Shown here: in pieces, positions 3,317-30,129 of the stretch
Layout of the letters: each line of letters opens with the position of its first letter
How positions within the stretch are numbered: the first letter of the stretch is position 1
NCBI RefSeq assembly: GCF_000025925.1
Contig: NC_014033.1
Coordinates: 270,001-302,000, forward strand
Reading direction: 5' to 3'
DNA: 32,000 nt
Source of the DNA: Xylanibacter ruminicola 23
GTDB taxonomy: Bacteria; Bacteroidota; Bacteroidia; Bacteroidales; Bacteroidaceae
Position numbers and translations under genes: made by a program
The notes under the pieces: generated by a model
Databases searched by the model: none
What the model was told of the DNA's origin: nothing
What the model saw: only the letters and a program-made list of their open reading frames with translations

Positions 3317-4294
3317 TTATTTTATTATATAATTATCGAAATTTTTAATGCCATTCAGGAAATCTTTGCCATTCATGCGCTTTTTTCCAGCCAACTGCAG
3401 CTCCTCGATCATCAGCAACTCGTCGGCTGCCTTGATGCAGGGCTTGCGGTCGATAATGGCGGTGTGACCGAGCTCGCCGGTGGTATTTCCGGTTTTGTTG
3501 GTCTTGAAAATCTTCAGCACCGTTTCCTTACCATCGGGCGATACCAGTGTGGTCCAGGCGCCGGGGTAGGGCGAAAGACCGCGGATAAAGTCGTAAACCT
3601 GCTTGGCTGGCTGGTTCCAGTTAATCTGGCAGGTCTCCTTGAATATCTTCGGTGCTGCGTGCAGCTCGCTACCTACGGGAATCATCTGCTCCTGAGGAAT
3701 GCTCTCGGGGTGTCCGTCGGCAGCGATAATTTTTTCGAGTGTCTCCAGACAGATCTCGGCACCCAGGTTCATCAGTCCGTCGTACACATACTCTACGTCG
3801 GCTGTGTCGGGGATAGCGAAGGGCTTCTGCATGATGATGCGACCGGTGTCGATATCGTGGTCGAGGAAGAAGGTGGTTACGCCTGTTTGTGTTTCGCCGT
3901 GAATCACCGCCCAGTTGATGGGGGCTGCACCGCGATACTGTGGTAGCAAAGCGGCATGTACGTTAAAGGTGCCGTAGGCGGGCATATCCCAAACCACCTC
4001 GGGCAGCATGCGGAATGCTACTACCACCTGCAGGTTGGCCTGATACGAGCGCAACTGCTCTACAAACTCGGGATCCTTCATCTTTACGGGTTGCAGTACG
4101 GGCAAGTTGTGATCAAGAGCATACTTCTTAACTTCCGATGGCTGCATCTCAGTCTGATGGCGACCAACGGGTTTGTCGGGCTGTGTTACTACAGCCACTA
4201 CATTATAATCGTTCTCAACCAGAGCCTGCAGTGTTGGCACCGCAAACTCGGGTGTTCCCATAAATACAATCCTTAAATCCTTCTTTTCCATCAT
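3317..4294 (-). CDS. fmt: Methionyl-tRNA formyltransferase
   Basis: 325-aa ORF: RIVFMGTPEFAVPTL, NVHAALLPQYRGAAPINWAVIHGE. Confidence 0.95.
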   Translation of the reverse strand: MMEKKDLRIVFMGTPEFAVPTLQALVENDYNVVAVVTQPDKPVGRHQTEMQPSEVKKYALDHNLPVLQPVKMKDPEFVEQLRSYQANLQVVVAFRMLPEVVWDMPAYGTFNVHAALLPQYRGAAPINWAVIHGETQTGVTTFFLDHDIDTGRIIMQKPFAIPDTADVEYVYDGLMNLGAEICLETLEKIIAADGHPESIPQEQMIPVGSELHAAPKIFKETCQINWNQPAKQVYDFIRGLSPYPGAWTTLVSPDGKETVLKIFKTNKTGNTTGELGHTAIIDRKPCIKAADELLMIEELQLAGKKRMNGKDFLNGIKNFDNYIIK

Positions 4295-4308
4295 TCTATA
4301 TATTTTTT

Positions 4309-4391
4309 GGCACGAATTTCGCGAATTTTCGCGAATTATTATCGTTTCGCACCAATATTATTATTTCGTGTTAATTCGTGTAATTCGTGCC
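4309..4391. repeat. Palindromic intergenic element, CACGAATT dialect
   Basis: GGCACGAATTTCGCGAATTTTCGCGAATT...TTCGTGTTAATTCGTGTAATTCGTGCC, with terminal inverted repeats GGCACGAATT/AATTCGTGCC and tandem (C/A)(G/C)CGAATT words. It fills the fmt-ClC gap. Confidence 0.9.
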
Positions 4392-4396
4392 TAATC

Positions 4397-6202
4397 TTAA
4401 TCTTCACTCATATCTGCAACCATTTTGCGATACATGGTGTAGATGCGCTGGCGCGAGATGTAACCCTTCAGACGGTTCTCGGCATCGAGCACGGGGAGCC
4501 AGTTGGCACCGGTGCGGTCGAAGGTGCGCATCACCTGTCGCATCTGCATGCCATCCGTGAGCAGTGCTTTGGGATCGGTCATCAGCTGCGACGCCTTGAA
4601 GTGGTGATAGAGTTCTATTCTGAATACTACGTTTCTGATTTTCATAATGTCGATCTCGCCCAGCAATTTGCCGCCTGCATCGAGCACGGGCAGTACTGTG
4701 GAGTGGCTGCGACTGATTTTGTGTACAATCTCGTTCAGCTCCATATCGGGTTCGACACCCAGATAGTCGCGCTCAATCACCGAGTCGAGATTCATCAGCG
4801 TCAGCACAGCGTGGTCGGTATGGTGGGTGAGCAGTTTTCCCTGCTTGGCCAGGCGCGAGCCATAGATGCTGTGAGGCTCGAAAATGCTGATGGTCATATA
4901 GGCCACCACGCTCACAATCATCAGCGGCATAAACATCGAGTAGCCGCCAGTCAGCTCGGCTATCAGGAAGATACCCGTAAGCGGCGCGTGCATCACACCC
5001 GACATCACACCTGCCATACCCAGCAACGCAAAGTTCTTCTCGGGCACATACACACCGATGGAGTTGATGTTCCAAAGTCGCGAAAAGAGGAAGCCGGTAA
5101 AACAGCCGATAAACAGCGATGGTGCGAATGTTCCACCGCAGCCGCCTCCGCCATTGGTGGCCGATGTGGCTACTACCTTGGTAAACAGTACCAGGGCGAT
5201 ATATACCAGCAACAGCGACCCTTGACCCGAGAACATCGAGTTGTTGAGTATGCGGTTCCAGTCGTCGGCATTCTGTCCGTTCAACAGCAGGTTAATGCTG
5301 CTGTAGCCCTCGCCATACAGCGCGGGGAACAGGAAGATAAGCAAACTAAGCGTGGTACCACCGATGGCCAGTTTTACGTATGGCTTATCCTTGAATTTCG
5401 AGAACACATCCTCGCAGGCGCCCATCATGCGGATAAAGTAAAGCGAAACCAGTCCGCAGGCAATGCCTAAGCCTATGCAGGCCGGTATGCGCTCCACGCT
5501 CCACTCGCTATCCAGATGGAAGGTAAAGAGCGATGAGTCGCCACTAAAGATATAGGTAAACACGGTGGCTGTTACGCACGATACCAGAATAGGTAGCAGG
5601 GCCGACATGGTCATATCAATCATCAGCACCTCGAGCGTAAACACCAGTCCGGCTATCGGGGCCTTAAAGATACCGGCGATAGCACCTGCAGCACCACAGC
5701 CCACCAGCGTCATCAGCATTTTTCGATCCAGATGGAACAGCTGACCCAGGTTTGAACCGATGGCCGAACCTGTAAGCACGATAGGTGCCTCGGCTCCTAC
5801 CGATCCACCAAAGCCGATGGTAATGGCTGAGGCTATCACACTCGACCAGCAGTTGTGCGATTTCAGTCGCGAACGGTTGGATGAGATGGCATAGAGAATG
5901 CGCGTGATACCGTGCGAGATGTTATCCTTTACGATATAGCGTACAAACAGCGACGTGAGATAGATACCCACAACGGGGTAAACCAGGTAGAGCCAGTTGG
6001 CGCGACTCTGGTTGAACGAGCTGGTGAGCAGCGTTACAATCTGGTTGATAATCCAGTGCAGCACAAAGGCAGCCACGGCGGCGAAAAAGCCCACAAGCAG
6101 GGCAAGGATAATCATAAACATCCTCTCGCTCACGTGCTCCACGCGCCAGTCGTGCAACCGCTTCAGCCACTCCGGTCTTCTATCTACAACTGTTGTCTCC
6201 AT
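4397..6202 (-). CDS. ClC-family chloride channel / H+-Cl- exchanger with C-terminal CBS pair
   Basis: ClC motifs GSVGAEAP, GIFKAPIAG and GTFAPSLF, multiple TM segments and a CBS-like C-terminus. Start trimmed to the ATG at 6202 (METTVVDRR). The ORF-track GTG at 6220 lies inside the repeat element. Confidence 0.9.
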   Translation of the reverse strand: METTVVDRRPEWLKRLHDWRVEHVSERMFMIILALLVGFFAAVAAFVLHWIINQIVTLLTSSFNQSRANWLYLVYPVVGIYLTSLFVRYIVKDNISHGITRILYAISSNRSRLKSHNCWSSVIASAITIGFGGSVGAEAPIVLTGSAIGSNLGQLFHLDRKMLMTLVGCGAAGAIAGIFKAPIAGLVFTLEVLMIDMTMSALLPILVSCVTATVFTYIFSGDSSLFTFHLDSEWSVERIPACIGLGIACGLVSLYFIRMMGACEDVFSKFKDKPYVKLAIGGTTLSLLIFLFPALYGEGYSSINLLLNGQNADDWNRILNNSMFSGQGSLLLVYIALVLFTKVVATSATNGGGGCGGTFAPSLFIGCFTGFLFSRLWNINSIGVYVPEKNFALLGMAGVMSGVMHAPLTGIFLIAELTGGYSMFMPLMIVSVVAYMTISIFEPHSIYGSRLAKQGKLLTHHTDHAVLTLMNLDSVIERDYLGVEPDMELNEIVHKISRSHSTVLPVLDAGGKLLGEIDIMKIRNVVFRIELYHHFKASQLMTDPKALLTDGMQMRQVMRTFDRTGANWLPVLDAENRLKGYISRQRIYTMYRKMVADMSED

Positions 6203-6215
6203 CTTTTTGTTTTTT

Positions 6216-6306
6216 GGCACGGATTAACACGGCTCTCTTTTAGAGAAACGCTGCTTTTTGCGCAGCCAGCCGTGTCTTTTTATAAAAAATCCGTGTAATC
6301 CGTGCC
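6216..6306 (+). repeat. 91-nt nested-palindrome intergenic element (copy R2)
   Basis: GGCACGGATTAACACGGCTCTCTTTTAGAGAAACGCTGCTTTTTGCGCAGCCAGCCGTGTCTTTT..ATCCGTGTAATCCGTGCC. The first 65 nt are identical to copy 6913-7003. Confidence 0.95.
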
Positions 6307-6312
6307 TAATTA

Positions 6313-6897
6313 TTATTTTCGTATTACTGTAACTTCGCCGTTTTCTTTCAGTTTGATAATGCTCGAGGGGGTGTGGGGCTTGTGCTCCTGGCGACGGCTC
6401 CAGCACACGTAGTCCACGGCTTCGAGTATGCGTGGGTCGATGTCGCAGTAGTTCTGTGCGGCAGGCTCGCCACTGATGTTGGCCGATGTTGATACGATGG
6501 CCTTCTGGAAACGGAAGCAGAGCTCCTTCGAGAAAGGCTCGTTGGTGATACGGATACCTAAGCTGCCATCCTCGGCAATCAGGTTGGGTGCCAGGTTGAT
6601 AGCGCCATCCAGAATCAGTGTGGTTGGCTTGGCATCGGTAGCCTCTTTCAAGCTGTCGATCAGCTGCCAGGCCACATCTGGCACATTGCGGAAGTAGCGC
6701 TGCATGCGGGCATCGCTATCCACCAAGCAAATCAGCGCCTTCGAATCCTCGCGCTGCTTAATCTCGTAAACACGCTTCACGGCCTCGGCATTAGTGGCAT
6801 CGCAACCAATACCCCAAACGGTGTCGGTAGGGTAGAGGATTACACCGCCCTTACGCATCGTCTCAATTGCCTGTTTAATATCGTCTTCTTGTTTCAT
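6313..6897 (-). CDS. tsaC: L-threonylcarbamoyladenylate synthase (TsaC/YrdC/Sua5 family)
   Basis: ILYPTDTVWGIGCDA, IKQRE, VSTSANISGEP. Start trimmed to the ATG at 6897 (MKQEDD). The longer ORF-track start lies in the repeat. Confidence 0.8.
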   Translation of the reverse strand: MKQEDDIKQAIETMRKGGVILYPTDTVWGIGCDATNAEAVKRVYEIKQREDSKALICLVDSDARMQRYFRNVPDVAWQLIDSLKEATDAKPTTLILDGAINLAPNLIAEDGSLGIRITNEPFSKELCFRFQKAIVSTSANISGEPAAQNYCDIDPRILEAVDYVCWSRRQEHKPHTPSSIIKLKENGEVTVIRK

Positions 6898-6912
6898 ACG
6901 CTTTTTTCTTTT

Positions 6913-7003
6913 GGCACGGATTAACACGGCTCTCTTTTAGAGAAACGCTGCTTTTTGCGCAGCCAGCCGTGTCTTTTATTAAAAAGCCGTGTTAATCCGT
7001 GCC
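6913..7003 (+). repeat. 91-nt nested-palindrome intergenic element (copy R3, best-formed)
   Basis: Perfect 19-nt terminal inverted repeats GGCACGGATTAACACGGCT / AGCCGTGTTAATCCGTGCC, and a central hairpin GCTGC-TTTTTGC-GCAGC. Confidence 0.95.
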
Positions 7004-7009
7004 TATCAT

Positions 7010-8599
7010 TTAGAATTCTGATGTAAAGTGGAACTTGATGTTTTCGAAGTCCTGCTGGGCCATGCTCAGCACGTAGCCGCTATCGGCCAGGAACACGTCG
7101 CGGCCGTCCTTATCCTTAGCCATGTACTGGTACTTACGCTTCTTAAAGTTCTCCAACTCCTGTGGATCGTCGCTCTCAATCCAGCAGGCCTTATACAGAT
7201 GTACGGGCTCCCAACGGCACTTGGCGTTGTACTCGTTCTCCAGACGATACTGGATAACTTCGAACTGCAGCTGTCCTACGGTTCCGATAATTTTTCTATT
7301 ATTAAACTGGTTTACGAACAACTGTGCCACACCCTCGTCCATCAGCTGGTCGATACCCTTCTGCAGCTGCTTGGCCTTCATGGGGTCGTCGTTCTCGATA
7401 TACTTAAACAACTCGGGCGAGAACGATGGCAGTCCGCGGAAGTGCAGTTTCTCGCCCTCGGTCAGTGTGTCGCCAATCTTAAACATACCGCCTGTATCGG
7501 GCAGACCTACGATATCGCCTGGCCAAGCCTCGTCGATGGTGCTCTTACGCTGCGCCATAAACTGTGTGGGGCTTGAGAAACGCATCGTTTTACCCTGGCG
7601 CACGTGCAGGTAAGGCTGGTTGCGCTGGAACTTACCAGAGCATACCTTACAGAATGCGATACACGAGCGGTGGTTGGGGTCGATATTAGCGGTAATCTTA
7701 AAGATAAATCCTGTAAACTTGGGCTCCTCGGGCTGTACATCGCGCTCCTCGGCCTTGGTGGGGCGGGGCGATGGTGCAATCTCAACAAAGCAGTTAAGCA
7801 GCTCCTGCACACCAAAGTTGTTCAGGGCCGATCCGAAGAATACGGGGGCCACTTCGGCCTCGCGATAGGTCTCTACATCGAACTCGGGGTAAACACCATC
7901 CACCAGCTCCAGGTCCTCGCGCAGCTTGGCGGCGTTCTCCTCGCCTACACGCTGGTCGAGCTCCTCGCTGTCGATGTCAACCTCTACCTTATCTGTTACA
8001 CGCTGCTTGTCGGGAGTAAACAGGTCGAGCTTCTGTTCGTAGATATTGTAAACGCCCTTGAACTTGGCACCCTGATTGATAGGCCAAGACAGTGGGCGAA
8101 CCTTGATTTCGAGTTCCTGCTCCAGTTCGTCGAGCAAGTCGAAGGGATCGCGACCTTCGCGGTCCATCTTATTGATAAAGATGATAACGGGTGTTTTGCG
8201 CATGCGGCACACCGTCATCAGTTTGCGGGTCTGAGTCTCAACACCTTTGGCACCATCCACTACGATAATGGCTGAATCTACAGCGGTGAGTGTGCGGAAG
8301 GTATCCTCAGCAAAGTCCTGGTGACCTGGGGTGTCCAGAATGTTCACCTTGTATTCGATGTCCTTGCCATCGGGGGTGTAATCGAACTCCATCACAGAGG
8401 TCGATACAGAGATACCACGCTGCTTCTCGATATCCATCCAGTCGCTGGTGGCAGTTTTCTTAATCTTGTTGCTTTTTACAGCTCCAGCCACCTGTATCTG
8501 TCCACCGAACAGCAGAAACTTCTCTGTCAGTGTAGTCTTACCCGCGTCCGGGTGCGAAATGATGGCAAATGTACGTCTTCTTTCTATTTCCTGATTCAT
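7010..8599 (-). CDS. prfC: Peptide chain release factor 3 (GTPase)
   Basis: 529 aa: [32 protein letters not shown]. Confidence 0.95.
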
Positions 8600-8614
8600 A
8601 TATTCTTTTTTTTA

Positions 8615-8653
8615 GGCACGGATTAACACGGCTCTTTTTAAAAGAGACGCGGC
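8615..8653 (+). repeat. Left half of split element (copy R4)
   Basis: GGCACGGATTAACACGGCTCTTTTTAAAAGAGACGCGGC, ending directly at the stop codon of the GxxExxY ORF (8654). Confidence 0.9.
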
Positions 8654-9040
8654 TTATTCTTCGTCCGTTTGCCCTTCTTTTGTTAATATCTTACGTCTAA
8701 CTTTCACTGAGCGACCAAAATTGATCAATAGTCCCAACTCCATATGGGTGGCTGCCAAGTAGTTTATTAGCTGCCATTCATGCTCTGGTCGTAAATCAGT
8801 TACAGCCTTTAATTCTATAATAATCTTATCTTCAACTACCATGTCGGCAACATAGTGCCCAACTTTATCGCCTTTATAGTAAACATCTAATGGTTTTTGA
8901 CATTCACACTTCAGGCCCATTCTACTAAGCTCTTTATACAAAGCGTTACCATACACGGCCTCGAGGAAACCAAATTTTAACTCATCATGTACAAGATGAG
9001 CTGCATGTACAATTTTCTTTGATAAATCTTCGTATAACAT
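8654..9040 (-). CDS. GxxExxY protein (PD-(D/E)XK nuclease-like superfamily)
   Basis: 128 aa with the signature GFLEAVY plus DMVVEDKIIIELK (D...ExK-like). My hand count is 145 G+C in 387 nt (about 37%), against roughly 50-65% in sampled flanking stretches. The ORF is bounded at both ends by the arms of a split repeat element. Confidence 0.9.
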   Translation of the reverse strand: MLYEDLSKKIVHAAHLVHDELKFGFLEAVYGNALYKELSRMGLKCECQKPLDVYYKGDKVGHYVADMVVEDKIIIELKAVTDLRPEHEWQLINYLAATHMELGLLINFGRSVKVRRKILTKEGQTDEE

Positions 9041-9083
9041 AGCCGTGTCCTTTTTTTAAAAAAAAGCCGTGTTAATCCGTGCC
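9041..9083 (+). repeat. Right half of split element (copy R4)
   Basis: AGCCGTGTCCTTTTTTTAAAAAAAAGCCGTGTTAATCCGTGCC, beginning directly after the GxxExxY start codon (9040). It overlaps the last codons of rfbD. Confidence 0.9.
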
Positions 9084-9929
9084 TAAAAGAGCGATGCACT
9101 CGGCGAGGCTTTCTTCCCAGTAGGGGATTTCGATGTTGTAGGTCTGCTTTATTTTTGTTTTGTCTAATACGCTGTAGTGCGGACGGGCGGCGGGAGTAGG
9201 GTACTCGCTGGTGTGCAGAGGGCGCACATGGCAAGTGTTGATACCGGCAATGCGGTGGATGGCCTTGGTAAAGTCGTACCACGAGATAACACCCTCGTTG
9301 CTGAAGTGATAAATGCCTGGCACGATGCCCTGATTGATGGCGGCAAAGATGGCCACAGCCAGGTCGCGTGCATAAGTAGGTGTACCTATCTGGTCGAAGA
9401 TAACACCCAGCTCGGGCTTCTCCTTACCCAAACGAATCATCGTCTTTACAAAGTTATTGCCGAATGTAGAGTACAGCCATGCCGTGCGGATAATCATCGA
9501 GCGCTTGCAACCATTGGTTACCTCCTGCTCGCCTTCCAGCTTGGTGCGACCGTAAGTGCTGTTAGGACATACACTTTCGTCCTCGGTATAAGGGCGGTGA
9601 TTGGTACCGTCGAACACATAGTCGGTAGAAATCTGAATCATCCATCCACCACGCTTCTCGATGGCTTTGGCCAGCAATCCTGGGGCGGTGGCGTTCAGCT
9701 TGTGGCACAGCTCCTGGTTCTCCTCAGCCTTGTCCACGGCTGTGTAGGCGGCGCAGTTCACAATACCGTCAATCTCGTTGTCAGTTACAAATCGGTTGAT
9801 GGCTTCCTCGTCGGTAATATCCAGCTCAGCCACATCCGTATTAAAATAGGTATGCTGCTGGTTTTCCTTTTCCAGCAGCTGCATCTCGTTTCCAAGTTGG
9901 CCGTTACATCCGGTTATCAATATCCTCAT
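9072..9929 (-). CDS. rfbD: dTDP-4-dehydrorhamnose reductase
   Basis: 285 aa: MRILITGCNGQLG, STDYVFDG. The last codons G-T-D and the stop are read from the repeat arm GGCACGGATTAA. Confidence 0.9.
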   Translation of the reverse strand: MRILITGCNGQLGNEMQLLEKENQQHTYFNTDVAELDITDEEAINRFVTDNEIDGIVNCAAYTAVDKAEENQELCHKLNATAPGLLAKAIEKRGGWMIQISTDYVFDGTNHRPYTEDESVCPNSTYGRTKLEGEQEVTNGCKRSMIIRTAWLYSTFGNNFVKTMIRLGKEKPELGVIFDQIGTPTYARDLAVAIFAAINQGIVPGIYHFSNEGVISWYDFTKAIHRIAGINTCHVRPLHTSEYPTPAARPHYSVLDKTKIKQTYNIEIPYWEESLAECIALLGTD

Positions 9930-9948
9930 GACGCTCTATTTTTTTCTT

Positions 9949-10041
9949 GGCACGGATTTACGCGGCTCTCTTTTAGAGAAACACTGCTTTTTTTGCGCAG
10001 CCAGCCGTGTCTTTTTATTAAAAGCCGTGTAAATCCGTGCC
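9949..10041 (+). repeat. 93-nt nested-palindrome intergenic element (copy R5)
   Basis: GGCACGGATTTACGCGGCTCTCTTTTAGAGAAACACTGCTTTTTTTGCGCAGCCAGCCGTGTCTTTTTATTAAAAGCCGTGTAAATCCGTGCC. Both arms carry the ATTTAC/GTAAAT variant. Confidence 0.95.
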
Positions 10042-10047
10042 TAATAA

Positions 10048-10593
10048 TTATTCAAATTTCAATCCTTCTTCTTTGTCCTTTTTATAATAATCTGAGAGCA
10101 TGCCGATAAAAGTTGTTATCTCCTTTACGGCATGTGCTGTGTCGGGCGAAATGTCCTTCTTCTGCAGGCGCAGCAACATCACACCGTACAGCGAGTTAAA
10201 ACATGTCTCAATCTCGTTCTCCTCCTTGTTGGCACCACGGTTGCGCAGCTCTACGATAAAGGGCAGCACTTTGTAGTAAGCCGTGTTGTAAAAGGGAAAT
10301 TTGCTGCTCTGCAACAGCTGCTGGTGCAGCTCAATCAGCATCTGCATGGTAACCTTGTTAATCTGCAGGTGTCCCTGCTCGCGGCATCCCTCCTGATTCA
10401 TCATGCGTATCAGGTTGCCAAACCAGTCGGTCTCTTCCTCCTTCTGTTCGTCGTTATAGTCGAAGCGCTCAATATACTCGCGCTTGATGCGTTGCAGCGA
10501 GCAGTCGAATGCTCGCACCGTGTCTTCCATCTGCCACATATACAGCAGATACTCGGCAATGTTGGTTTTTCTAAGTTCGTTTGCTATAAACAT
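10048..10593 (-). CDS. Conserved Bacteroidota hypothetical protein (DUF4924-like; family name from memory)
   Basis: 181-aa ORF with gene-like composition, NIAEYLLYMWQMEDTVRAF. It is tightly packed after the LysE-family gene. Confidence 0.75.
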   Translation of the reverse strand: MFIANELRKTNIAEYLLYMWQMEDTVRAFDCSLQRIKREYIERFDYNDEQKEEETDWFGNLIRMMNQEGCREQGHLQINKVTMQMLIELHQQLLQSSKFPFYNTAYYKVLPFIVELRNRGANKEENEIETCFNSLYGVMLLRLQKKDISPDTAHAVKEITTFIGMLSDYYKKDKEEGLKFE

Positions 10594-12597: not shown

Positions 12598-14139
12598 ATG
12601 GAGAAACTTATTGAATTATATACCCAATGGAGGGGAGCTGAGCCGGCTAATGTTCAGCAGATCCCCGGGGGCGGTAGTAACCGCACTTACTTCCGTTTGA
12701 CCGACAAGCAGGGACAGAGTGTGATAGGCGTGATAGGCACCAGTCGCGACGAGGACCATGCGTTTATCTATCTTACCAAGCATTTTTCGCGATTGCAGAT
12801 GCCGGTGCCAAAGATTCTGGCTGCCAGCGACGACCAGCTGCGATACCTGCAAACCGACTTGGGTAGCATGTCGCTTTTCGACGCCATCCGTGGTGGTCGC
12901 GAAGCGGGCGGACGTTATACCCTGAAAGAGCAGGAACTGCTGCGCCGCACCATACGCGAACTGCCTAAAATGCAGATGCAGGGGGCTCGCGATCTGGATT
13001 TCGAGAACTGCTACCCACAGGCGGAGTTTGACGTGGATAGCGTGCTGTTCGACCTGAACTACTTTAAGTACTGTTTCCTGAAGGCTACGGAGATTGATTT
13101 CCACGAGTTGAAGCTGGAGGCCGACTTCCGACTGATGGCGAAGGATCTGACTTCGGAACAGAGCGATTCGTTTCTGTATCGCGACTTCCAGGCTCGCAAC
13201 GTGATGTTAGACCACGATGGCAATCCTTGGTTTATTGATTACCAAGGCGGCCGAAAAGGTCCGTTTTATTACGATGTGGCTTCGTTCTTGTGGCAGGCCT
13301 CGGCTAAGTATCCACACAAGCTGCGCCGTGAACTGGTGTACGAGTACTACAACTCGCTGAAGAATTACATCGAGGTGCCCACGGTGCGCCACTTTGTAAA
13401 TCGTCTGTCGCTGTTTGTGCTGTTCCGTACCTTGCAGGTGCTGGGCGCTTACGGATTCCGCGGCTATTTTGAGCAGAAAAAGCATTTTATTGAGAGCATT
13501 CCACCTGCCATACAGAACCTTCGCGAGTTGTTGGCAAGCAGCACGCCTTGGCATTATCCATACTTGATGGAGATTCTGCAGAAGCTGACAGAGCTGCCAC
13601 AGTTCCAGCAGATTGAGACGGTGGCCAGTCGTGCCGATGGTTATAAGACGACCGATTTGAACCCTTATAAGGCCCATCCACAGGACGGACCGGCTACGTT
13701 CTCGAAGTACGATGCGCAGGGACCGCTGGTGGTTAAGGTGTTCAGCTTCTCGTATCGCAACGGCATACCTGAGGACGAGAGCGGTAACGGTGGTGGCTAT
13801 GTATTCGACTGCCGTAGCACGCACAACCCCGGCCGTTATGAGCCTTACAAAAAGCTGACGGGACTGGATGAACCGGTAATACGATTCCTGGAGGATGATG
13901 GTGAGATACTAACGTTCCTGGATTCGGTTTATAAGTTGGCCGATGCGCATGTGCGCCGCTACATTCAGCGTGGCTTTACCAGTCTGATGTTCTCGTTCGG
14001 ATGTACAGGTGGTCAGCACCGTTCGGTTTATTCGGCTCAGCACTTAGCCGAGCATATCCACGAAAAGTTTGGTATCGAGGTTCGCGTAGAACATCGCGAA
14101 CAGAAAATCAAACAAACCTTCGAAGCAAAGAAGATTTAG
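12598..14139 (+). CDS. Fusion protein: AmgK/APH-like sugar kinase domain + RapZ C-terminal-like domain
   Basis: The N-terminal half has the kinase catalytic loop YRDFQARNVMLDHDGNPWFIDYQG. The C-terminal half has FSFSYRNGIP...YVFDCRSTHNPGRYEPYKKLTGLDEPVIRFL...FGCTGGQHRSVYSAQHLAEHI, which matches the RapZ C-terminal domain as I remember it (FDVRFLPNP...MTGLDKPV...GCTGGKHRSVY). Start set at the ATG at 12598 (MEKLIELY), 8 nt after a TATCTTTG box. Confidence 0.8.
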   Translation: MEKLIELYTQWRGAEPANVQQIPGGGSNRTYFRLTDKQGQSVIGVIGTSRDEDHAFIYLTKHFSRLQMPVPKILAASDDQLRYLQTDLGSMSLFDAIRGGREAGGRYTLKEQELLRRTIRELPKMQMQGARDLDFENCYPQAEFDVDSVLFDLNYFKYCFLKATEIDFHELKLEADFRLMAKDLTSEQSDSFLYRDFQARNVMLDHDGNPWFIDYQGGRKGPFYYDVASFLWQASAKYPHKLRRELVYEYYNSLKNYIEVPTVRHFVNRLSLFVLFRTLQVLGAYGFRGYFEQKKHFIESIPPAIQNLRELLASSTPWHYPYLMEILQKLTELPQFQQIETVASRADGYKTTDLNPYKAHPQDGPATFSKYDAQGPLVVKVFSFSYRNGIPEDESGNGGGYVFDCRSTHNPGRYEPYKKLTGLDEPVIRFLEDDGEILTFLDSVYKLADAHVRRYIQRGFTSLMFSFGCTGGQHRSVYSAQHLAEHIHEKFGIEVRVEHREQKIKQTFEAKKI

Positions 14140-14196
14140 GCACGGATTCTTGGACGAGCCAAGCGGCAAAGCCGAGCGACACGGATTACACGGATT
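14139..14196 (+). repeat. Double-hairpin core module flanked by CACGGATT words
   Basis: GGCACGGATT-CTTGGACGAGCCAAG-CGGCAAAGCCG-AGCGA-CACGGATT-ACACGGATT. Its first bases supply the TAG stop (14137-14139) of the preceding gene. Confidence 0.9.
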
Positions 14197-14203
14197 TTTT
14201 TTA

Positions 14204-14303
14204 GGCACGGATTTACGCGGCTTTTTTTATAAAAAAGGACACGGCTTTAGCATTGCAACTATAGCCGTGTCTTTAATTTATTAAAGCCGTGTTAATCCGT
14301 GCC
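14204..14303 (+). repeat. 100-nt nested-palindrome intergenic element (copy R6)
   Basis: GGCACGGATTTACGCGGCT...GGACACGGCT-TTAGCATTGCAACTAT-AGCCGTGTC...AGCCGTGTTAATCCGTGCC. The inner GACACGGCT/AGCCGTGTC hairpin is intact. Confidence 0.95.
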
Positions 14304-20446: not shown

Positions 20447-21142
20447 ATGGAAAAATTAAAAGACAATCAGAGGATCAGTGTGCTGTTTATGTTTTACGGC
20501 ATACTGTTTTGCGTGTGCCTGATTACGGCAAACGTATTGGAGACAAAACAGATTTCGTTTGGACCTGCTAACATGACGGCTGGACTCATTGTGTTCCCCG
20601 TAAGTTACATCATCAACGATGTGGTTTGCGAGGTGTGGGGATACCGTCGTACGCGTCTGCTCATCTGGCTGGGCTTTGCCATGAACTTTATGTTTGTGGT
20701 GTTTGGTGCCATCGCCGACTGGATTCCTGGTGCCTCGTACTGGCATGGCGAGGAGGGATTCCATCAGATCTTCGGATTGGCACCTCGTATCGCCGGTGCA
20801 TCGTTCCTGGCTTTCCTGGCAGGATCGTTTATGAATGCCTACGTGATGAGTAAGATGAAGTTGAGCTCGAACGGTAAGAATTTCTCGGCCCGTGCCGTGA
20901 TGAGTACTGTCTGGGGTGAGCTTACCGACTCAATCATCTTCTTCCCCCTGGCGCTGGGTGGTGTTATCCCCTGGGAGGAGATGCCATCGCTGGTTATCAC
21001 ACAGGTAACACTGAAGACGGTTTACGAAATCATTGCACTTCCTGTAACCATCCGTGTGGTAAACTTTACCAAGAAGCACGACCACGAGGATGTGTTCGAC
21101 AAGGATGTAACGTACAACATCTTCAAGGTCAAGGAACTTTAA
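20447..21142 (+). CDS. yhhQ: Queuosine precursor transporter (YhhQ/DUF165 family)
   Basis: Multi-TM: VFPVSYIINDVVCEVWGY..., TDSIIFFPLA. Start set at the ATG at 20447 (MEKLKD). The ORF-track TTG at 20417 lies inside the riboswitch-like hairpin. Confidence 0.85.
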   Translation: MEKLKDNQRISVLFMFYGILFCVCLITANVLETKQISFGPANMTAGLIVFPVSYIINDVVCEVWGYRRTRLLIWLGFAMNFMFVVFGAIADWIPGASYWHGEEGFHQIFGLAPRIAGASFLAFLAGSFMNAYVMSKMKLSSNGKNFSARAVMSTVWGELTDSIIFFPLALGGVIPWEEMPSLVITQVTLKTVYEIIALPVTIRVVNFTKKHDHEDVFDKDVTYNIFKVKEL

Positions 21143-21219
21143 TGTTTAATGTTTCGCTCGGCTTTGCCGCTTGGCATCGCCAAGAATGTTTAATGTTTAA
21201 TCTTTAATGTTTAATGTAT
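21141..21219 (-). repeat. Double-hairpin core module flanked by AATGTTT heptamer words
   Basis: (AATGTTT)x2 - TCGCTCGGCTTTGCCGCTTGGCATCGCCAAG (21154-21184, reverse complement of the 14149-14179 core; the only differences are in one hairpin loop) - AATGTTT AATGTTT AATCTTT AATGTTT AATGTAT. It fills the whole yhhQ-queF gap. Confidence 0.9.
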
Positions 21220-21220
21220 T

Positions 21221-24178: not shown

Positions 24179-24309
24179 GGCACGGATATGTTTTAGGCAC
24201 GGATTTACACGGCTTTAATTTTATTAAAGACACGGCTGTAGTGAAAAAGCAGTGTTTCTTATAAAAGAGCCGCGTTAATCCGTGCCAATTTATTATTTCC
24301 ATCCGTGCC
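24179..24309 (-). repeat. Nested-palindrome element (copy R7, core 24196-24286 inverted relative to R2-R6) with extra outer GGCACGGAT / ATCCGTGCC words
   Basis: The plus-strand reading matches the reverse complement of copy 6913-7003 block by block (GGCACGGATTTACACGGCTTT..AAAGACACGGCT..AAAAAGCAGTGTTTCT..AAAAGAGCCGCGTTAATCCGTGCC). Confidence 0.9.
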
Positions 24310-24323
24310 AAATTTTTTTTTCT

Positions 24324-30075: not shown

Positions 30076-30080
30076 ACATC

Positions 30081-30129
30081 AATCTTTAATGTTTAATGTT
30101 TAATGTTTAATGTTTAATGTTTAAAGATT
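30081..30129. repeat. Heptamer microsatellite (AATGTTT)x5 inside an AATCTTTAA/TTAAAGATT palindrome
   Basis: AATCTTT (AATGTTT)x5 AAAGATT, with perfect units at 30088-30122. It lies between convergent genes and overlaps the pepT stop codon (30121-30123) and its last codons. Confidence 0.95.

What the first reader, a model, noticed from the sequence alone, without database searches (positions are those of the whole stretch)
6216..10041. Dense family of ~91-nt nested-palindrome intergenic elements
I read these copies directly: 6216-6306, 6913-7003, 9949-10041, 14204-14303 and 24196-24286. There is also the split copy 8615-8653/9041-9083 and a dialect copy at 4309-4391. Copies 6216 and 6913 are identical over their first 65 nt. 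Each has 19-nt terminal inverted repeats, an inner AGCCGTGTC unit (paired with GACACGGCT in copy 14204) and a central GCTGC-N7-GCAGC hairpin. Each copy nearly fills its gene-to-gene gap. Six consecutive junctions of a co-directional minus-strand string carry one: fmt, ClC, tsaC, prfC, GxxExxY, rfbD, DUF4924-like. In the direction of transcription the big hairpin is followed by an A-tract, not a U-tract, so these are not canonical intrinsic terminators. No TAnnTTTG box occurs in either orientation, so they are not promoters. This is REP/BIME- or MITE-like behaviour at unusually high local density (about 7 copies in 20 kb). I do not recognise the sequence as a named family. Arm variants partly co-vary: copy 9949 has ATTTAC/GTAAAT in both arms and copy 6913 has ATTAAC/GTTAAT in both. 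Copies 14204 and 24196 are mixed, so covariation is suggestive only.
Basis: partly seen in the sequence, partly recalled or inferred. Interest (0 to 1): 0.7.

Follow-up and report, generated by a model that had tools for sequence, protein, structure and literature searches.

The report
Prevotella palindromic repeats enclosing a nuclease gene
The ~91-nt nested palindromes are a real, strain-variable repeat family of rumen Prevotella that sits just after stop codons, and the same repeat ends consistently enclose a small nuclease gene of unknown function (GxxExxY), which suggests a partner enzyme that has not been described.

Summary
All listed copies are at the stated coordinates (13 arm matches against 0.1 expected). 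The family is not confined to the window: more than 120 stretches in dozens of rumen Prevotella/Xylanibacter genomes carry the 19-nt arm. Closely related strains (prfC 97-99% identical) have filled, empty, remnant or differently filled versions of the same junctions, so the elements turn over.

The elements are modular. Each has an outer arm built of 9-10-nt units (GGCACGGATT/ACACGG..), AT-rich mini-palindromes, and an inner GC stem.

They start 5-10 nt after a stop codon and end 10-20 nt before the next ATG. None was found at a divergent junction.

Copies at convergent junctions, including 14204, carry a two-way terminator-like core. Copies between co-directional genes do not.

Arm variants do not covary, and sense and antisense fold equally well, so I found no sign of a strand-specific RNA structure.

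The new result concerns the "split copy". It is one element carrying a GxxExxY (PD-(D/E)XK) gene at its centre. This enclosed layout holds for 39 of 57 GxxExxY contexts and 0 of 854 other ORFs, and the repeat dialect tracks the protein clade.

Best reading: a REP/BIME-like repeat family with a REPtron-like nuclease partner. Rfam and the searchable literature contain no match. The mechanism is inferred, not shown.

The parts
4309..4391 (-). Dialect copy built of CACGAATT/CGCGAATT units (3 per arm) at the ClC-fmt junction. It has no CGGCT inner modules.
   Evidence: I13; RNA fold -25.9 kcal/mol, z -4.8. The same junction is empty in L006 and holds a remnant in L005.
6216..6306 (-). 91-nt element at the tsaC(Sua5)-ClC junction. 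In the direction of transcription its 5' arm is of the CACGGATT type (a hybrid arm). The 3' half carries GCTGC-N7-GCAGC plus GTTTCTCT and then the CTCT/AGAG mini-palindrome.
   Evidence: Other strains have three different cores, or a 9-nt remnant, at this junction.
6913..7003 (-). 91-nt element at the prfC-tsaC junction with perfect 19-nt arms (GGCACGGATTAACACGGCT / AGCCGTGTTAATCCGTGCC).
   Evidence: (-48.9 kcal/mol, z -9.1). The junction is empty ('taaTTatg') in L003, L005 and L006.
8615..8653 (-). 3' half, relative to transcription, of the ORF-carrying element: GCCGCGTC, a CTCTTTTAAAAAGAG mini-palindrome, then the arm GCCGTGTTAATCCGTGCC. It abuts the GxxExxY stop codon.
8654..9040 (-). GxxExxY gene (128 aa; PF13366 PDDEXK_3, TIGR04256). 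It sits exactly where ORF-less copies have their central loop. The catalytic residues E27, D66, E76 and K78 are conserved.
   Evidence: E 5.5e-38; E 5.6e-40; AlphaFold2 pLDDT 93; generic PD-(D/E)XK fold.
9041..9083 (-). 5' half of the ORF-carrying element: the arm GGCACGGATTAACACGGCT, a T8/A7 mini-palindrome, then GGACACGGCT, followed directly by the ATG. The rmlD stop codon (9072-9074) lies inside this arm.
9949..10041 (-). 93-nt element at the DUF4924-rmlD junction.
   Evidence: The junction is empty ('taaCGatg') in L003 and L004, and holds a CACGAATT-dialect element in L005 and L006.
14139..14203 (.). Composite next to copy 14204: a solo GGCACGGATT unit, a 31-nt two-hairpin module (CTTGGACGAGCCAAG CGGCAAAGCCG AGCG), then ACACGGATTACACGGATT. 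The TAG stop of the upstream kinase-like gene overlaps the first unit.
   Evidence: (I7).
14204..14303 (.). Symmetric 100-nt element at a convergent junction. It has outer arms, two AT mini-palindromes, and a 9-13-bp inner stem GACACGGCT/AGCCGTGTC with a T-rich tract after the stem on both strands (a two-way terminator-like core).
   Evidence: (-55 kcal/mol, z -10.3).
24179..24310 (+). 91-nt element (24196-24286) in the inverted orientation on the + strand, between + strand genes. It is nested inside an outer minimal pair of units: GGCACGGAT at 24179 and ATCCGTGCC at 24302.

Best explanation
These are members of a lineage-specific, REP/BIME-like family of modular nested palindromes in the rumen Prevotella/Xylanibacter ruminicola group.

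Anatomy. Each copy is assembled from:
- an outer arm made of 9-10-nt units (GGCACGGATT, ACACGG..);
- an AT-rich mini-palindrome;
- an inner ACACGGCT/AGCCGTGT stem;
- a variable centre.

Shown. Copies are gained, lost, truncated and swapped at gene 3' ends. They start 5-10 nt after a stop codon, or supply the stop themselves, and are followed by the A-rich leader of the next gene. Versions at convergent junctions contain a two-way terminator-like core. Versions inside co-directional gene strings, which include most copies in this window, lack one. The ~91-nt copies have the same architecture as an element that carries a GxxExxY PD-(D/E)XK nuclease gene at its centre, except that the ORF is missing.

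Inferred. Because they fill gene-to-gene gaps, the copies are probably transcribed with their neighbours. That nuclease is the family's cognate enzyme, recognising the unit arrays or the extruded hairpin and cutting there. Copying, conversion and turnover of the repeats would then depend on it, in the way REP/REPIN sequences depend on the RAYT gene they flank.
For: Real and widespread:
- 13 arm hits against 0.1 expected.

Turnover:
- Orthologous junctions in strains with 97-99% identical prfC are empty, filled, filled with another dialect or core, or hold 9-20-nt remnants.
- Units occur in frame inside hisS in L129, L131 and L133.
- Elements are nested in the centre of other elements.

Position:
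- Convergent 30, co-directional 21, divergent 0.
- The stop-to-element distance has its mode at 5-10 nt, and the element-to-ATG distance is mostly 10-20 nt.

Architecture depends on context:
- AT 'alpha' modules face gene 3' ends 70:3, against 21:14 for 'beta' modules (Fisher p = 5.6e-6).
- The T-tract after the inner GC hairpin averages 4.4 T of 8 at convergent junctions (48% have 6 or more). In the sense direction at co-directional junctions it averages 1.6 (0% have 6 or more). Mann-Whitney p = 1.2e-5.

Nested palindromes are maintained:
- Of 73 distinct AT modules, 88% have a perfect stem of 5 bp or more, against 11% of shuffles.

Link to GxxExxY:
- The ORF replaces the central loop exactly.
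- A left-end unit before the ATG and a right-end unit after the stop occur in 39 of 57 GxxExxY contexts and 0 of 854 other ORFs.
- The layout is seen at the rmlD-prfC, purA-hisS, purM-prfA and other junctions.
- Protein clade tracks flank dialect.
- Neighbouring ORF-less elements share the dialect in the CACGGATGG species.
- Catalytic residues are conserved and the PD-(D/E)XK model is confident.
Against: - No cleavage, binding or transposition data exist.
- No target-site duplication is visible, and the inserted unit has no sharp boundary: AT-rich flanks come with it.
- The GxxExxY gene at rmlD-prfC is syntenic across species, so it may be an old passenger rather than the driver.
- Clade-dialect tracking is expected anyway if the ORF and its flanks are inherited as one unit.
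- L011's genome has many CGGCT-type copies, but its rmlD-prfC GxxExxY is of the CACGAATT type. Strain L003 has the window's GxxExxY allele but no other 91-nt copy in 21 kb.
- In distant environmental homologues the units lie in direct orientation and also follow unrelated toxin-antitoxin genes. That pattern fits a host-recognised motif at least as well.
- I could not scan a whole genome for a RAYT-type (Y1 HUH) gene, and a Bacteroidetes-specific RAYT subclass with atypical flanking structures is on record (PMC6006769).
- Gene orientation was called with a simple ORF heuristic, and the loci were chosen by pattern, so the sample is biased.
Confidence: 0.55

Rival explanations
1. The palindromes are REP-like elements spread by some other enzyme, such as a Bacteroidetes RAYT/TnpA-REP or host recombination. 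GxxExxY would be a selfish, homing-type nuclease gene, or a simple passenger, that lodges in the loop of the palindrome because that site is accessible and harmless.
For: - The centre of the palindrome is a general landing site: other elements are nested there and an IS110-family IS sits inside one element in L108.
- The rmlD-prfC GxxExxY gene is syntenic in many species.
- A Bacteroidetes-specific TnpA-REP subclass (2.6) with atypical flanking structures is described (PMC6006769).
- PD-(D/E)XK homing endonucleases exist (established knowledge; I-Bth0305I appears among the weak fold hits).
Against: - GxxExxY is the only gene found enclosed (39 of 57 against 0 of 854), and at several different junctions with different dialects.
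- No uninterrupted element was seen at rmlD-prfC in any strain, so there is no evidence of a vacant homing site.
- No Y1 transposase turned up between arms in about 1 Mb of sampled loci, though that sample is small.
- The REP motifs in the supplement of PMC6006769 do not include this sequence.
Confidence: 0.22
2. The repeats are host regulatory signals rather than mobile DNA. They would act as transcript punctuation (terminators at convergent junctions; processing or stabilising hairpins, such as RNase III sites, between co-transcribed genes). Alternatively they would be arrays of a 9-10-nt protein-binding word, comparable to DNA uptake sequences with dialects. In either case they would spread and be homogenised by recombination between strains.
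For: - Position relative to stop and start codons is very regular.
- Whether a terminator-like core is present depends on context.
- The word ..AATCCGTGCC followed by an A-run is conserved right in front of start codons even in distant environmental bacteria and next to unrelated genes.
- Dialects are species-wide.
- Three adjacent synonymous codon changes at the end of prfC accompany filled junctions, which suggests imported recombination tracts.
- Long rod-like predicted folds would suit RNase III (inference).
Against: - Sense and antisense fold equally well (mean difference 0.18 kcal/mol, p = 0.94).
- Arm variants do not compensate.
- Essential junctions do without any element in sister strains.
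- Units also occur in frame inside hisS, and elements are nested within elements.
- No Rfam family matches.
- This reading does not explain why only GxxExxY is enclosed.
Confidence: 0.18
3. The elements are attC-like recombination sites of an integron-like cassette system, and GxxExxY is a cassette.
For: - The arms contain GATTAAC ... GTTAATC, which is one mismatch from the attC R''/R' consensus RYYYAAC/GTTRRRY (consensus from established knowledge; sequence).
- In environmental contigs L216 and L217, GxxExxY genes sit in co-directional arrays of small toxin-antitoxin genes with the unit in most spacers.
Against: - In the window the flanked genes are housekeeping genes in conserved synteny.
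- The ORF is bounded by half elements, not by two complete sites as cassette insertion would leave.
- No integrase was seen in the loci.
- Elements also occur at convergent junctions with terminator-like cores.
Confidence: 0.03

Closest known systems
REP/BIME elements and the REPIN-RAYT (REPtron) arrangement of Proteobacteria
   Same: - Short extragenic palindromes in many copies at gene 3' ends, rare or absent at divergent promoters.
- Mosaic combinations of a few modules.
- Species-specific dialects.
- Presence/absence polymorphism between strains.
- A small gene at a fixed chromosomal place, flanked by inverted copies of the repeat.
- IS110-family insertions into the palindromes.
   Different: - There is no GTAG/CGTC tag at the foot of the hairpin.
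- The arms are arrays of 9-10-nt direct units rather than one 20-40-nt hairpin.
- The enclosed gene is a 128-aa PD-(D/E)XK (GxxExxY) protein, not a Y1 HUH transposase.
- Several paralogous enclosed genes occur at different junctions.
- Whether the gene mobilises the repeats is untested.
Correia elements (CREE/NEMIS) of Neisseria
   Same: - About 100-150-nt elements with long terminal inverted repeats between genes, co-transcribed with neighbours.
- Strain polymorphism.
- Hairpins reported as RNase III substrates and as terminators.
- No known cognate transposase.
- From memory, the Correia repeat also contains ..GGATTAACA.., as do these arms.
   Different: - Correia elements have a TA target duplication and an IHF site; neither was found here.
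- The organisms and sequences are otherwise unrelated.
- No ORF-carrying form of a Correia element is known.
MITEs (non-autonomous derivatives of insertion sequences)
   Same: - Size and terminal inverted repeats.
- Intergenic location.
- An ORF-less version alongside an ORF-carrying version with the same ends.
   Different: - No target-site duplication.
- No DDE or other recognised transposase shares the ends.
- The ORF-carrying copy is syntenic rather than scattered.
23S rRNA intervening sequences that carry small ORFs
   Same: A long stem formed by inverted ends with a small ORF of a selfish-looking family in the loop. The stem would be an RNase III substrate (inference).
   Different: Here the element is located between protein-coding genes, not in rRNA. 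No processing data exist.
Bidirectional intrinsic terminators
   Same: Convergent-junction copies have a GC stem flanked by an A-tract and a T-tract on both strands.
   Different: The terminator-like core is wrapped in conserved outer arms. Co-directional copies, which are most of those in this window, lack a strong T-tract in the sense direction.

Membership tests
REP/BIME (RAYT-associated) | 20-40-nt imperfect palindrome with a conserved 5' GT[AG]G (or CGTC) tetranucleotide at its foot | tested here: not met
   The arms start with (TTA)GGCACGGATT. No GTAG or CGTC tag is present.
REP/BIME (RAYT-associated) | Many extragenic copies, mostly downstream of genes, assembled as mosaics of a few motifs | tested here: met
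   More than 120 stretches. Convergent 30, co-directional 21, divergent 0. Modular combinations are seen.
REP/BIME (RAYT-associated) | A Y1 HUH transposase-like gene (RAYT) flanked by inverted REPs | tested here: inconclusive
   No such gene lies between arms in about 1 Mb of sampled loci; only GxxExxY and one IS110-family IS do. A whole-genome scan was not possible with the remaining quotas.
MITE | Terminal inverted repeats and a size of 50-500 nt | tested here: met
   19-nt arms, 83-100 nt in the window, and mostly about 90 nt (60-160 nt) across the sampled genomes.
MITE | Direct target-site duplication flanking the element | tested here: not met
   Filled versus empty junctions show none. 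The whole 2-nt spacer is replaced, and AT-rich flanks come with the element.
MITE | An autonomous IS with the same ends encoding a recognised transposase | tested here: not met
   The only ORF sharing the ends is GxxExxY (PF13366), which is not a known transposase.
Intrinsic (rho-independent) terminator | GC-rich hairpin directly followed by a U-rich tract in the direction of transcription | tested here: inconclusive
   Met by convergent-junction copies, including 14204 (48% have 6 or more T of 8). Not met by co-directional copies in the sense direction (0%). A weak match, GCTGC..GCAGC plus GTTTCTCT, occurs in copies 6216 and 6913.
Integron attC site | R''/R' boxes RYYYAAC / GTTRRRY, one site per cassette, in an array next to intI | tested here: not met
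   GATTAAC/GTTAATC are each one mismatch off. The flanked genes are syntenic housekeeping genes, the ORF is bounded by half sites, and no integrase was seen.
Any Rfam family | Score at or above the family's gathering threshold | tested here: not met
   0 hits at gathering threshold over the whole window. Only chance-level hits at E up to 1 over 4200-10200.
PD-(D/E)XK nuclease superfamily (the enclosed ORF) | Core fold with the E...D...ExK catalytic signature | tested here: met
   PF13366 E 5.5e-38. TIGR04256 E 5.6e-40. E27, E76 and K78 are invariant and D66 is invariant or nearly so in the two alignments. AlphaFold2 pLDDT 93. Foldseek top hits are Cas4, lambda exonuclease and Hjc-type nucleases, at weak scores. 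Catalysis itself was not tested.

The most novel reading that the evidence does not exclude
GxxExxY (PDDEXK_3) proteins, a very large family with no assigned function, would be the dedicated enzymes of a widespread class of unit-array palindromic repeats. Repeats and nuclease would form a second, independently evolved REPIN-RAYT-like partnership built on a PD-(D/E)XK nuclease instead of a HUH tyrosine transposase. The nuclease would recognise the 9-10-nt unit arrays or the extruded hairpin or cruciform, and would drive copying, conversion and dialect evolution of the repeats.
Probability: 0.3. Interest if true: 0.8.

Novelty: new variant of a known kind. Interest (0 to 1): 0.62.

Why it matters
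Prevotella and Xylanibacter are dominant rumen and gut bacteria, yet their intergenic repeats are essentially undescribed.

- The elements reshape gene junctions between close strains. They supply stop codons, and depending on context they do or do not carry a terminator-like core. They are therefore relevant to operon structure, genome annotation, strain typing and metagenome assembly breaks.
- The tight and specific enclosure of GxxExxY genes gives a concrete, testable function for a protein family with thousands of members and no known role.
- If confirmed, it would show that REP-type repeat-enzyme partnerships arose more than once, with different catalytic folds.

Tried and rejected
- **Rfam.** The gathering-threshold search and the E-value search found nothing.
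- **Literature.** Searches for the sequence itself, for Prevotella or Bacteroidetes palindromic repeats and MITEs, and for GxxExxY / PF13366 / TIGR04256 found no description. PF13366 is listed as function unknown (PMC3424549). The REP tables of PMC6006769 do not contain this motif.
- **Strand-specific RNA structure.** Rejected: sense and antisense energies are equal.
- **Compensatory change between the outer arms.** Rejected.
- **Target-site duplication.** Not seen.
- **Sense-specific terminator in co-directional copies.** A strict scan gave 5 of 21 in both directions. A refined measure showed instead the contrast between convergent and co-directional copies.
- **Defence-system or phage-family membership of GxxExxY.** PADLOC gave only chance-level hits and PHROGs none.
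- **Solved structures.** None by sequence. Fold search gave only generic PD-(D/E)XK matches.
- **Taxon of the environmental homologues.** Could not be named.
- **Considered from memory and dropped because they fit the sequence poorly:**
  - sigma-54 promoter (TGGCAC-N5-TTGC; the -12 box is absent);
  - DnaA boxes;
  - CsrA-type GGA sites (no CsrA is known in Bacteroidota, to my knowledge);
  - Bacteroidetes TAnnTTTG promoters (none inside copies).
- **Viral contigs.** Only 2 hits, not followed up.

Full report
**Observation**

A degenerate arm pattern finds 13 sites against 0.10 expected by chance. Copies 6216 and 6913 are identical for 65 nt. The 19-nt arms, the AGCCGTGTC/GACACGGCT unit and the GCTGC-N7-GCAGC hairpin are as described.

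Pfam confirms the gene string on the minus strand: fmt, ClC, Sua5/tsaC, prfC, PF13366, rmlD, DUF4924. Every junction in that string is occupied. Predicted folds are long rods, far more stable than shuffles, with z from -4.8 to -10.3.

**Origin and distribution**

The window is part of GCA_019973335.1, contig BPTT01000001.1 (3.58 Mb). Locus L001 is its reverse complement.

Nearly all are in rumen Prevotella, Xylanibacter ruminicola and unnamed Prevotellaceae, with several stretches per genome. Viral contigs gave 2 hits.

The family is therefore not a local duplication. The window is, however, a hotspot: 0.53 unit ends per kb, against 0.11 per kb in 816 kb of other loci.

**Turnover**

Five further strains or metagenome contigs carry an identical RF3 protein and 97-99% identical prfC DNA. 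Their orthologous junctions differ as follows.

| Junction | States seen |
|---|---|
| DUF4924-rmlD | 'taaCGatg' in two; the 91-nt type in the window and L002; a CACGAATT-dialect element in two |
| prfC-Sua5 | 'taaTTatg' in three |
| Sua5-ClC | three unrelated cores between the same CACGGATT arms, plus remnants such as TAATTAGGCCGTGCC |
| ClC-fmt | empty in one; a 20-nt remnant in another |

No target-site duplication is visible. AT-rich flanks (TTATTA on the 5' side, an A-rich leader on the 3' side) come with the element.

Elements are also nested in the centre of other elements. In another Prevotella species, units lie in frame inside hisS. An IS110-family IS sits inside one element.

**Anatomy and position**

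Read in the direction of the upstream gene, a typical copy has these parts:

1. (stop)-N5-10-TTA-GGCACGGATTWACRCGGCT;
2. an AT mini-palindrome;
3. ACACGGCT;
4. a variable centre;
5. either the mirror image of parts 2 and 3, or GCAGCGTTTC plus a CTCT/AGAG mini-palindrome;
6. GCCGTGTTAATCCGTGCC;
7. an A-rich leader of 10-20 nt, then the ATG.

Stop codons of rmlD and of the kinase-like gene lie inside the arm.

Of 51 elements with both neighbours called, 30 are at convergent junctions, 21 at co-directional junctions and none at divergent junctions. The AT 'alpha' module faces a gene 3' end 70 times and a 5' end 3 times. The CTCT 'beta' module does so 21 and 14 times (Fisher p = 5.6e-6).

The AT modules vary a great deal, yet each stays palindromic. 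Of 73 distinct sequences, 88% have a perfect stem of 5 bp or more, against 11% of shuffles.

**Tests bearing on function**

- Sense and antisense strands fold equally well at co-directional junctions (n = 21, mean difference 0.18 kcal/mol, p = 0.94).
- The two outer arms vary independently: A/A 22, A/G 11, G/A 13, G/G 1. This contradicts the suggested covariation and gives no support to a strand-specific RNA structure.
- The inner GC hairpin is followed by a T-rich tract on both strands at convergent junctions: mean 4.4 T of 8, and 48% have 6 or more. In the sense direction at co-directional junctions the mean is 1.6 and none has 6 or more (p = 1.2e-5).
- Copy 14204 is of the convergent type. 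The simple scan flags only a weak GCTGC..GCAGC plus GTTTCTCT site in copies 6216 and 6913.
- No TAnnTTTG box lies within a copy.

Terminator-like cores are thus kept where termination is wanted and are absent where read-through is needed.

**The enclosed gene**

The 'split copy' is a single element. The GxxExxY ORF (8654-9040, minus strand) occupies exactly the place of the central loop: its ATG abuts GGACACGGCT and its stop abuts GCCGCGTC.

The protein matches PF13366 and TIGR04256. It keeps the catalytic residues E27, D66, E76 and K78. AlphaFold2 models it confidently as a minimal PD-(D/E)XK nuclease (pLDDT 93). Fold matches are only generic: Cas4, lambda exonuclease and Hjc.

The same enclosure recurs at several junctions:

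- rmlD-prfC in other species, with other dialects;
- purA-hisS, with the CACGGATGG dialect;
- purM-prfA;
- most of 80 metagenomic homologues.

I then counted ORFs that have a left-end unit within 70 nt upstream and a right-end unit within 70 nt downstream. The result is 39 of 57 GxxExxY contexts and 0 of 854 other ORFs. Seven apparent exceptions proved to be GxxExxY proteins that my motif had missed.

Ordinary genes show the opposite pattern: a left end after the stop codon and a right end before the start codon. Protein clades track flank architecture. In the CACGGATGG species, neighbouring ORF-less elements use the same dialect.

**Limits of that link**

- The rmlD-prfC gene is syntenic, so it may be an old resident.
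- Clade-dialect tracking is expected if the ORF and its flanks travel together.
- Some genomes do not fit a simple one-to-one picture.
- In distant environmental homologues the unit lies in direct orientation, just before start codons, and also next to toxin-antitoxin genes in cassette-like arrays.
- A Bacteroidetes-specific RAYT subclass with atypical flanking structures has been described (PMC6006769), and I could not scan whole genomes for it.

**Comparison with known systems**

The family behaves like REP/BIME and Correia-type elements. Its gene-in-the-middle layout resembles a REPtron. It fails the defining tests for three classes:

- canonical REPs (no GTAG tag, no Y1 transposase found);
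- MITEs (no duplication, no recognised transposase);
- attC sites.

Rfam has no match. The searchable literature contains neither the sequence nor a function for GxxExxY.

**Verdict**

This is a real, widespread and polymorphic repeat family. It is a new variant of the REP/BIME kind. Its core architecture depends on transcriptional context, and it has a specific, previously unreported association with GxxExxY nuclease genes. The proposed enzymatic role of that nuclease is inference and needs the census and biochemistry listed above.

Noticed in passing
window 14150-14182 and 21151-21187 (reverse complement); also L004, L035, L064, L097, L105: A 31-nt two-hairpin module (CTTGG-N5-CCAAG CGGCAAAGCCG AGCG) recurs inside different hosts. 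At 14150 it lies between CACGGATT units, and at 21151 between TTTAATG heptamer repeats. It looks like a separate tiny insertion module.
   Followed up: partly
window 21130-21220 and 30077-30125: Arrays of the heptamer TTTAATG/AATGTTT lie at two gene ends, one of them a convergent junction. This is a second kind of intergenic unit-array repeat in the same genome.
   Followed up: no
L129, L131, L133 (hisS, about 3760-3820; second site in L131): Right-end units (..ATCCGTGGCCATCCGTGCCAAA..) lie in frame inside the histidyl-tRNA synthetase gene. They encode stretches such as RGHLRPSVPNNNSVSVPNN and VRVHPCPSVPKK, which recalls the in-frame palindromic elements of Rickettsia.
   Followed up: partly
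L108 1568-3279: An IS110-family insertion sequence (PF01548 plus PF02371) is inserted inside one element, within its right-hand AT module. IS110-family elements are known to target REP-type palindromes.
   Followed up: yes
L216 and L217 (environmental metagenome contigs): GxxExxY genes lie in co-directional arrays of small toxin-antitoxin genes (PIN, HicA, RelE, MNT/HepT) and IS elements. The ..AATCCGTGCC-AAAA unit is in direct orientation in most spacers, and a conserved hairpin GAATTYRGRTGCCYRAATTC-TTACTGCRAC follows some genes. The layout is cassette-array-like, and the taxon is unknown.
   Followed up: partly
window 7010-7021 (3' end of prfC) versus L003, L005, L006: The last three sense codons of prfC differ synonymously at five positions (TCA GAA TTC against AGC GAG TTT). 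All loci with an element at the junction have TCA GAA TTC and all empty ones have AGC GAG TTT; L004, which has an unrelated 44-nt spacer there, also has TCA GAA TTC. This suggests the elements arrive or leave with short recombination tracts.
   Followed up: partly
window 9072-9083 and 14137-14140: Two genes end inside repeat arms. The rmlD stop is the TAA of GGCACGGATTAA, and the stop of the kinase-like gene is the TAG of TTAGGCACGG. The arm and its first mini-palindrome carry stops in all three frames.
   Followed up: yes
L129, L132, L133 (2700-3000, upstream of GxxExxY): Whole elements or half elements are tandemly duplicated 2-4 times with a period of about 54-63 nt, and the number differs between samples. 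This indicates local expansion and contraction.
   Followed up: no
(protein search tables): Most GxxExxY homologues from metagenomes sit on very short contigs (0.5-4 kb). That would be expected if flanking repeats break assemblies.
   Followed up: no
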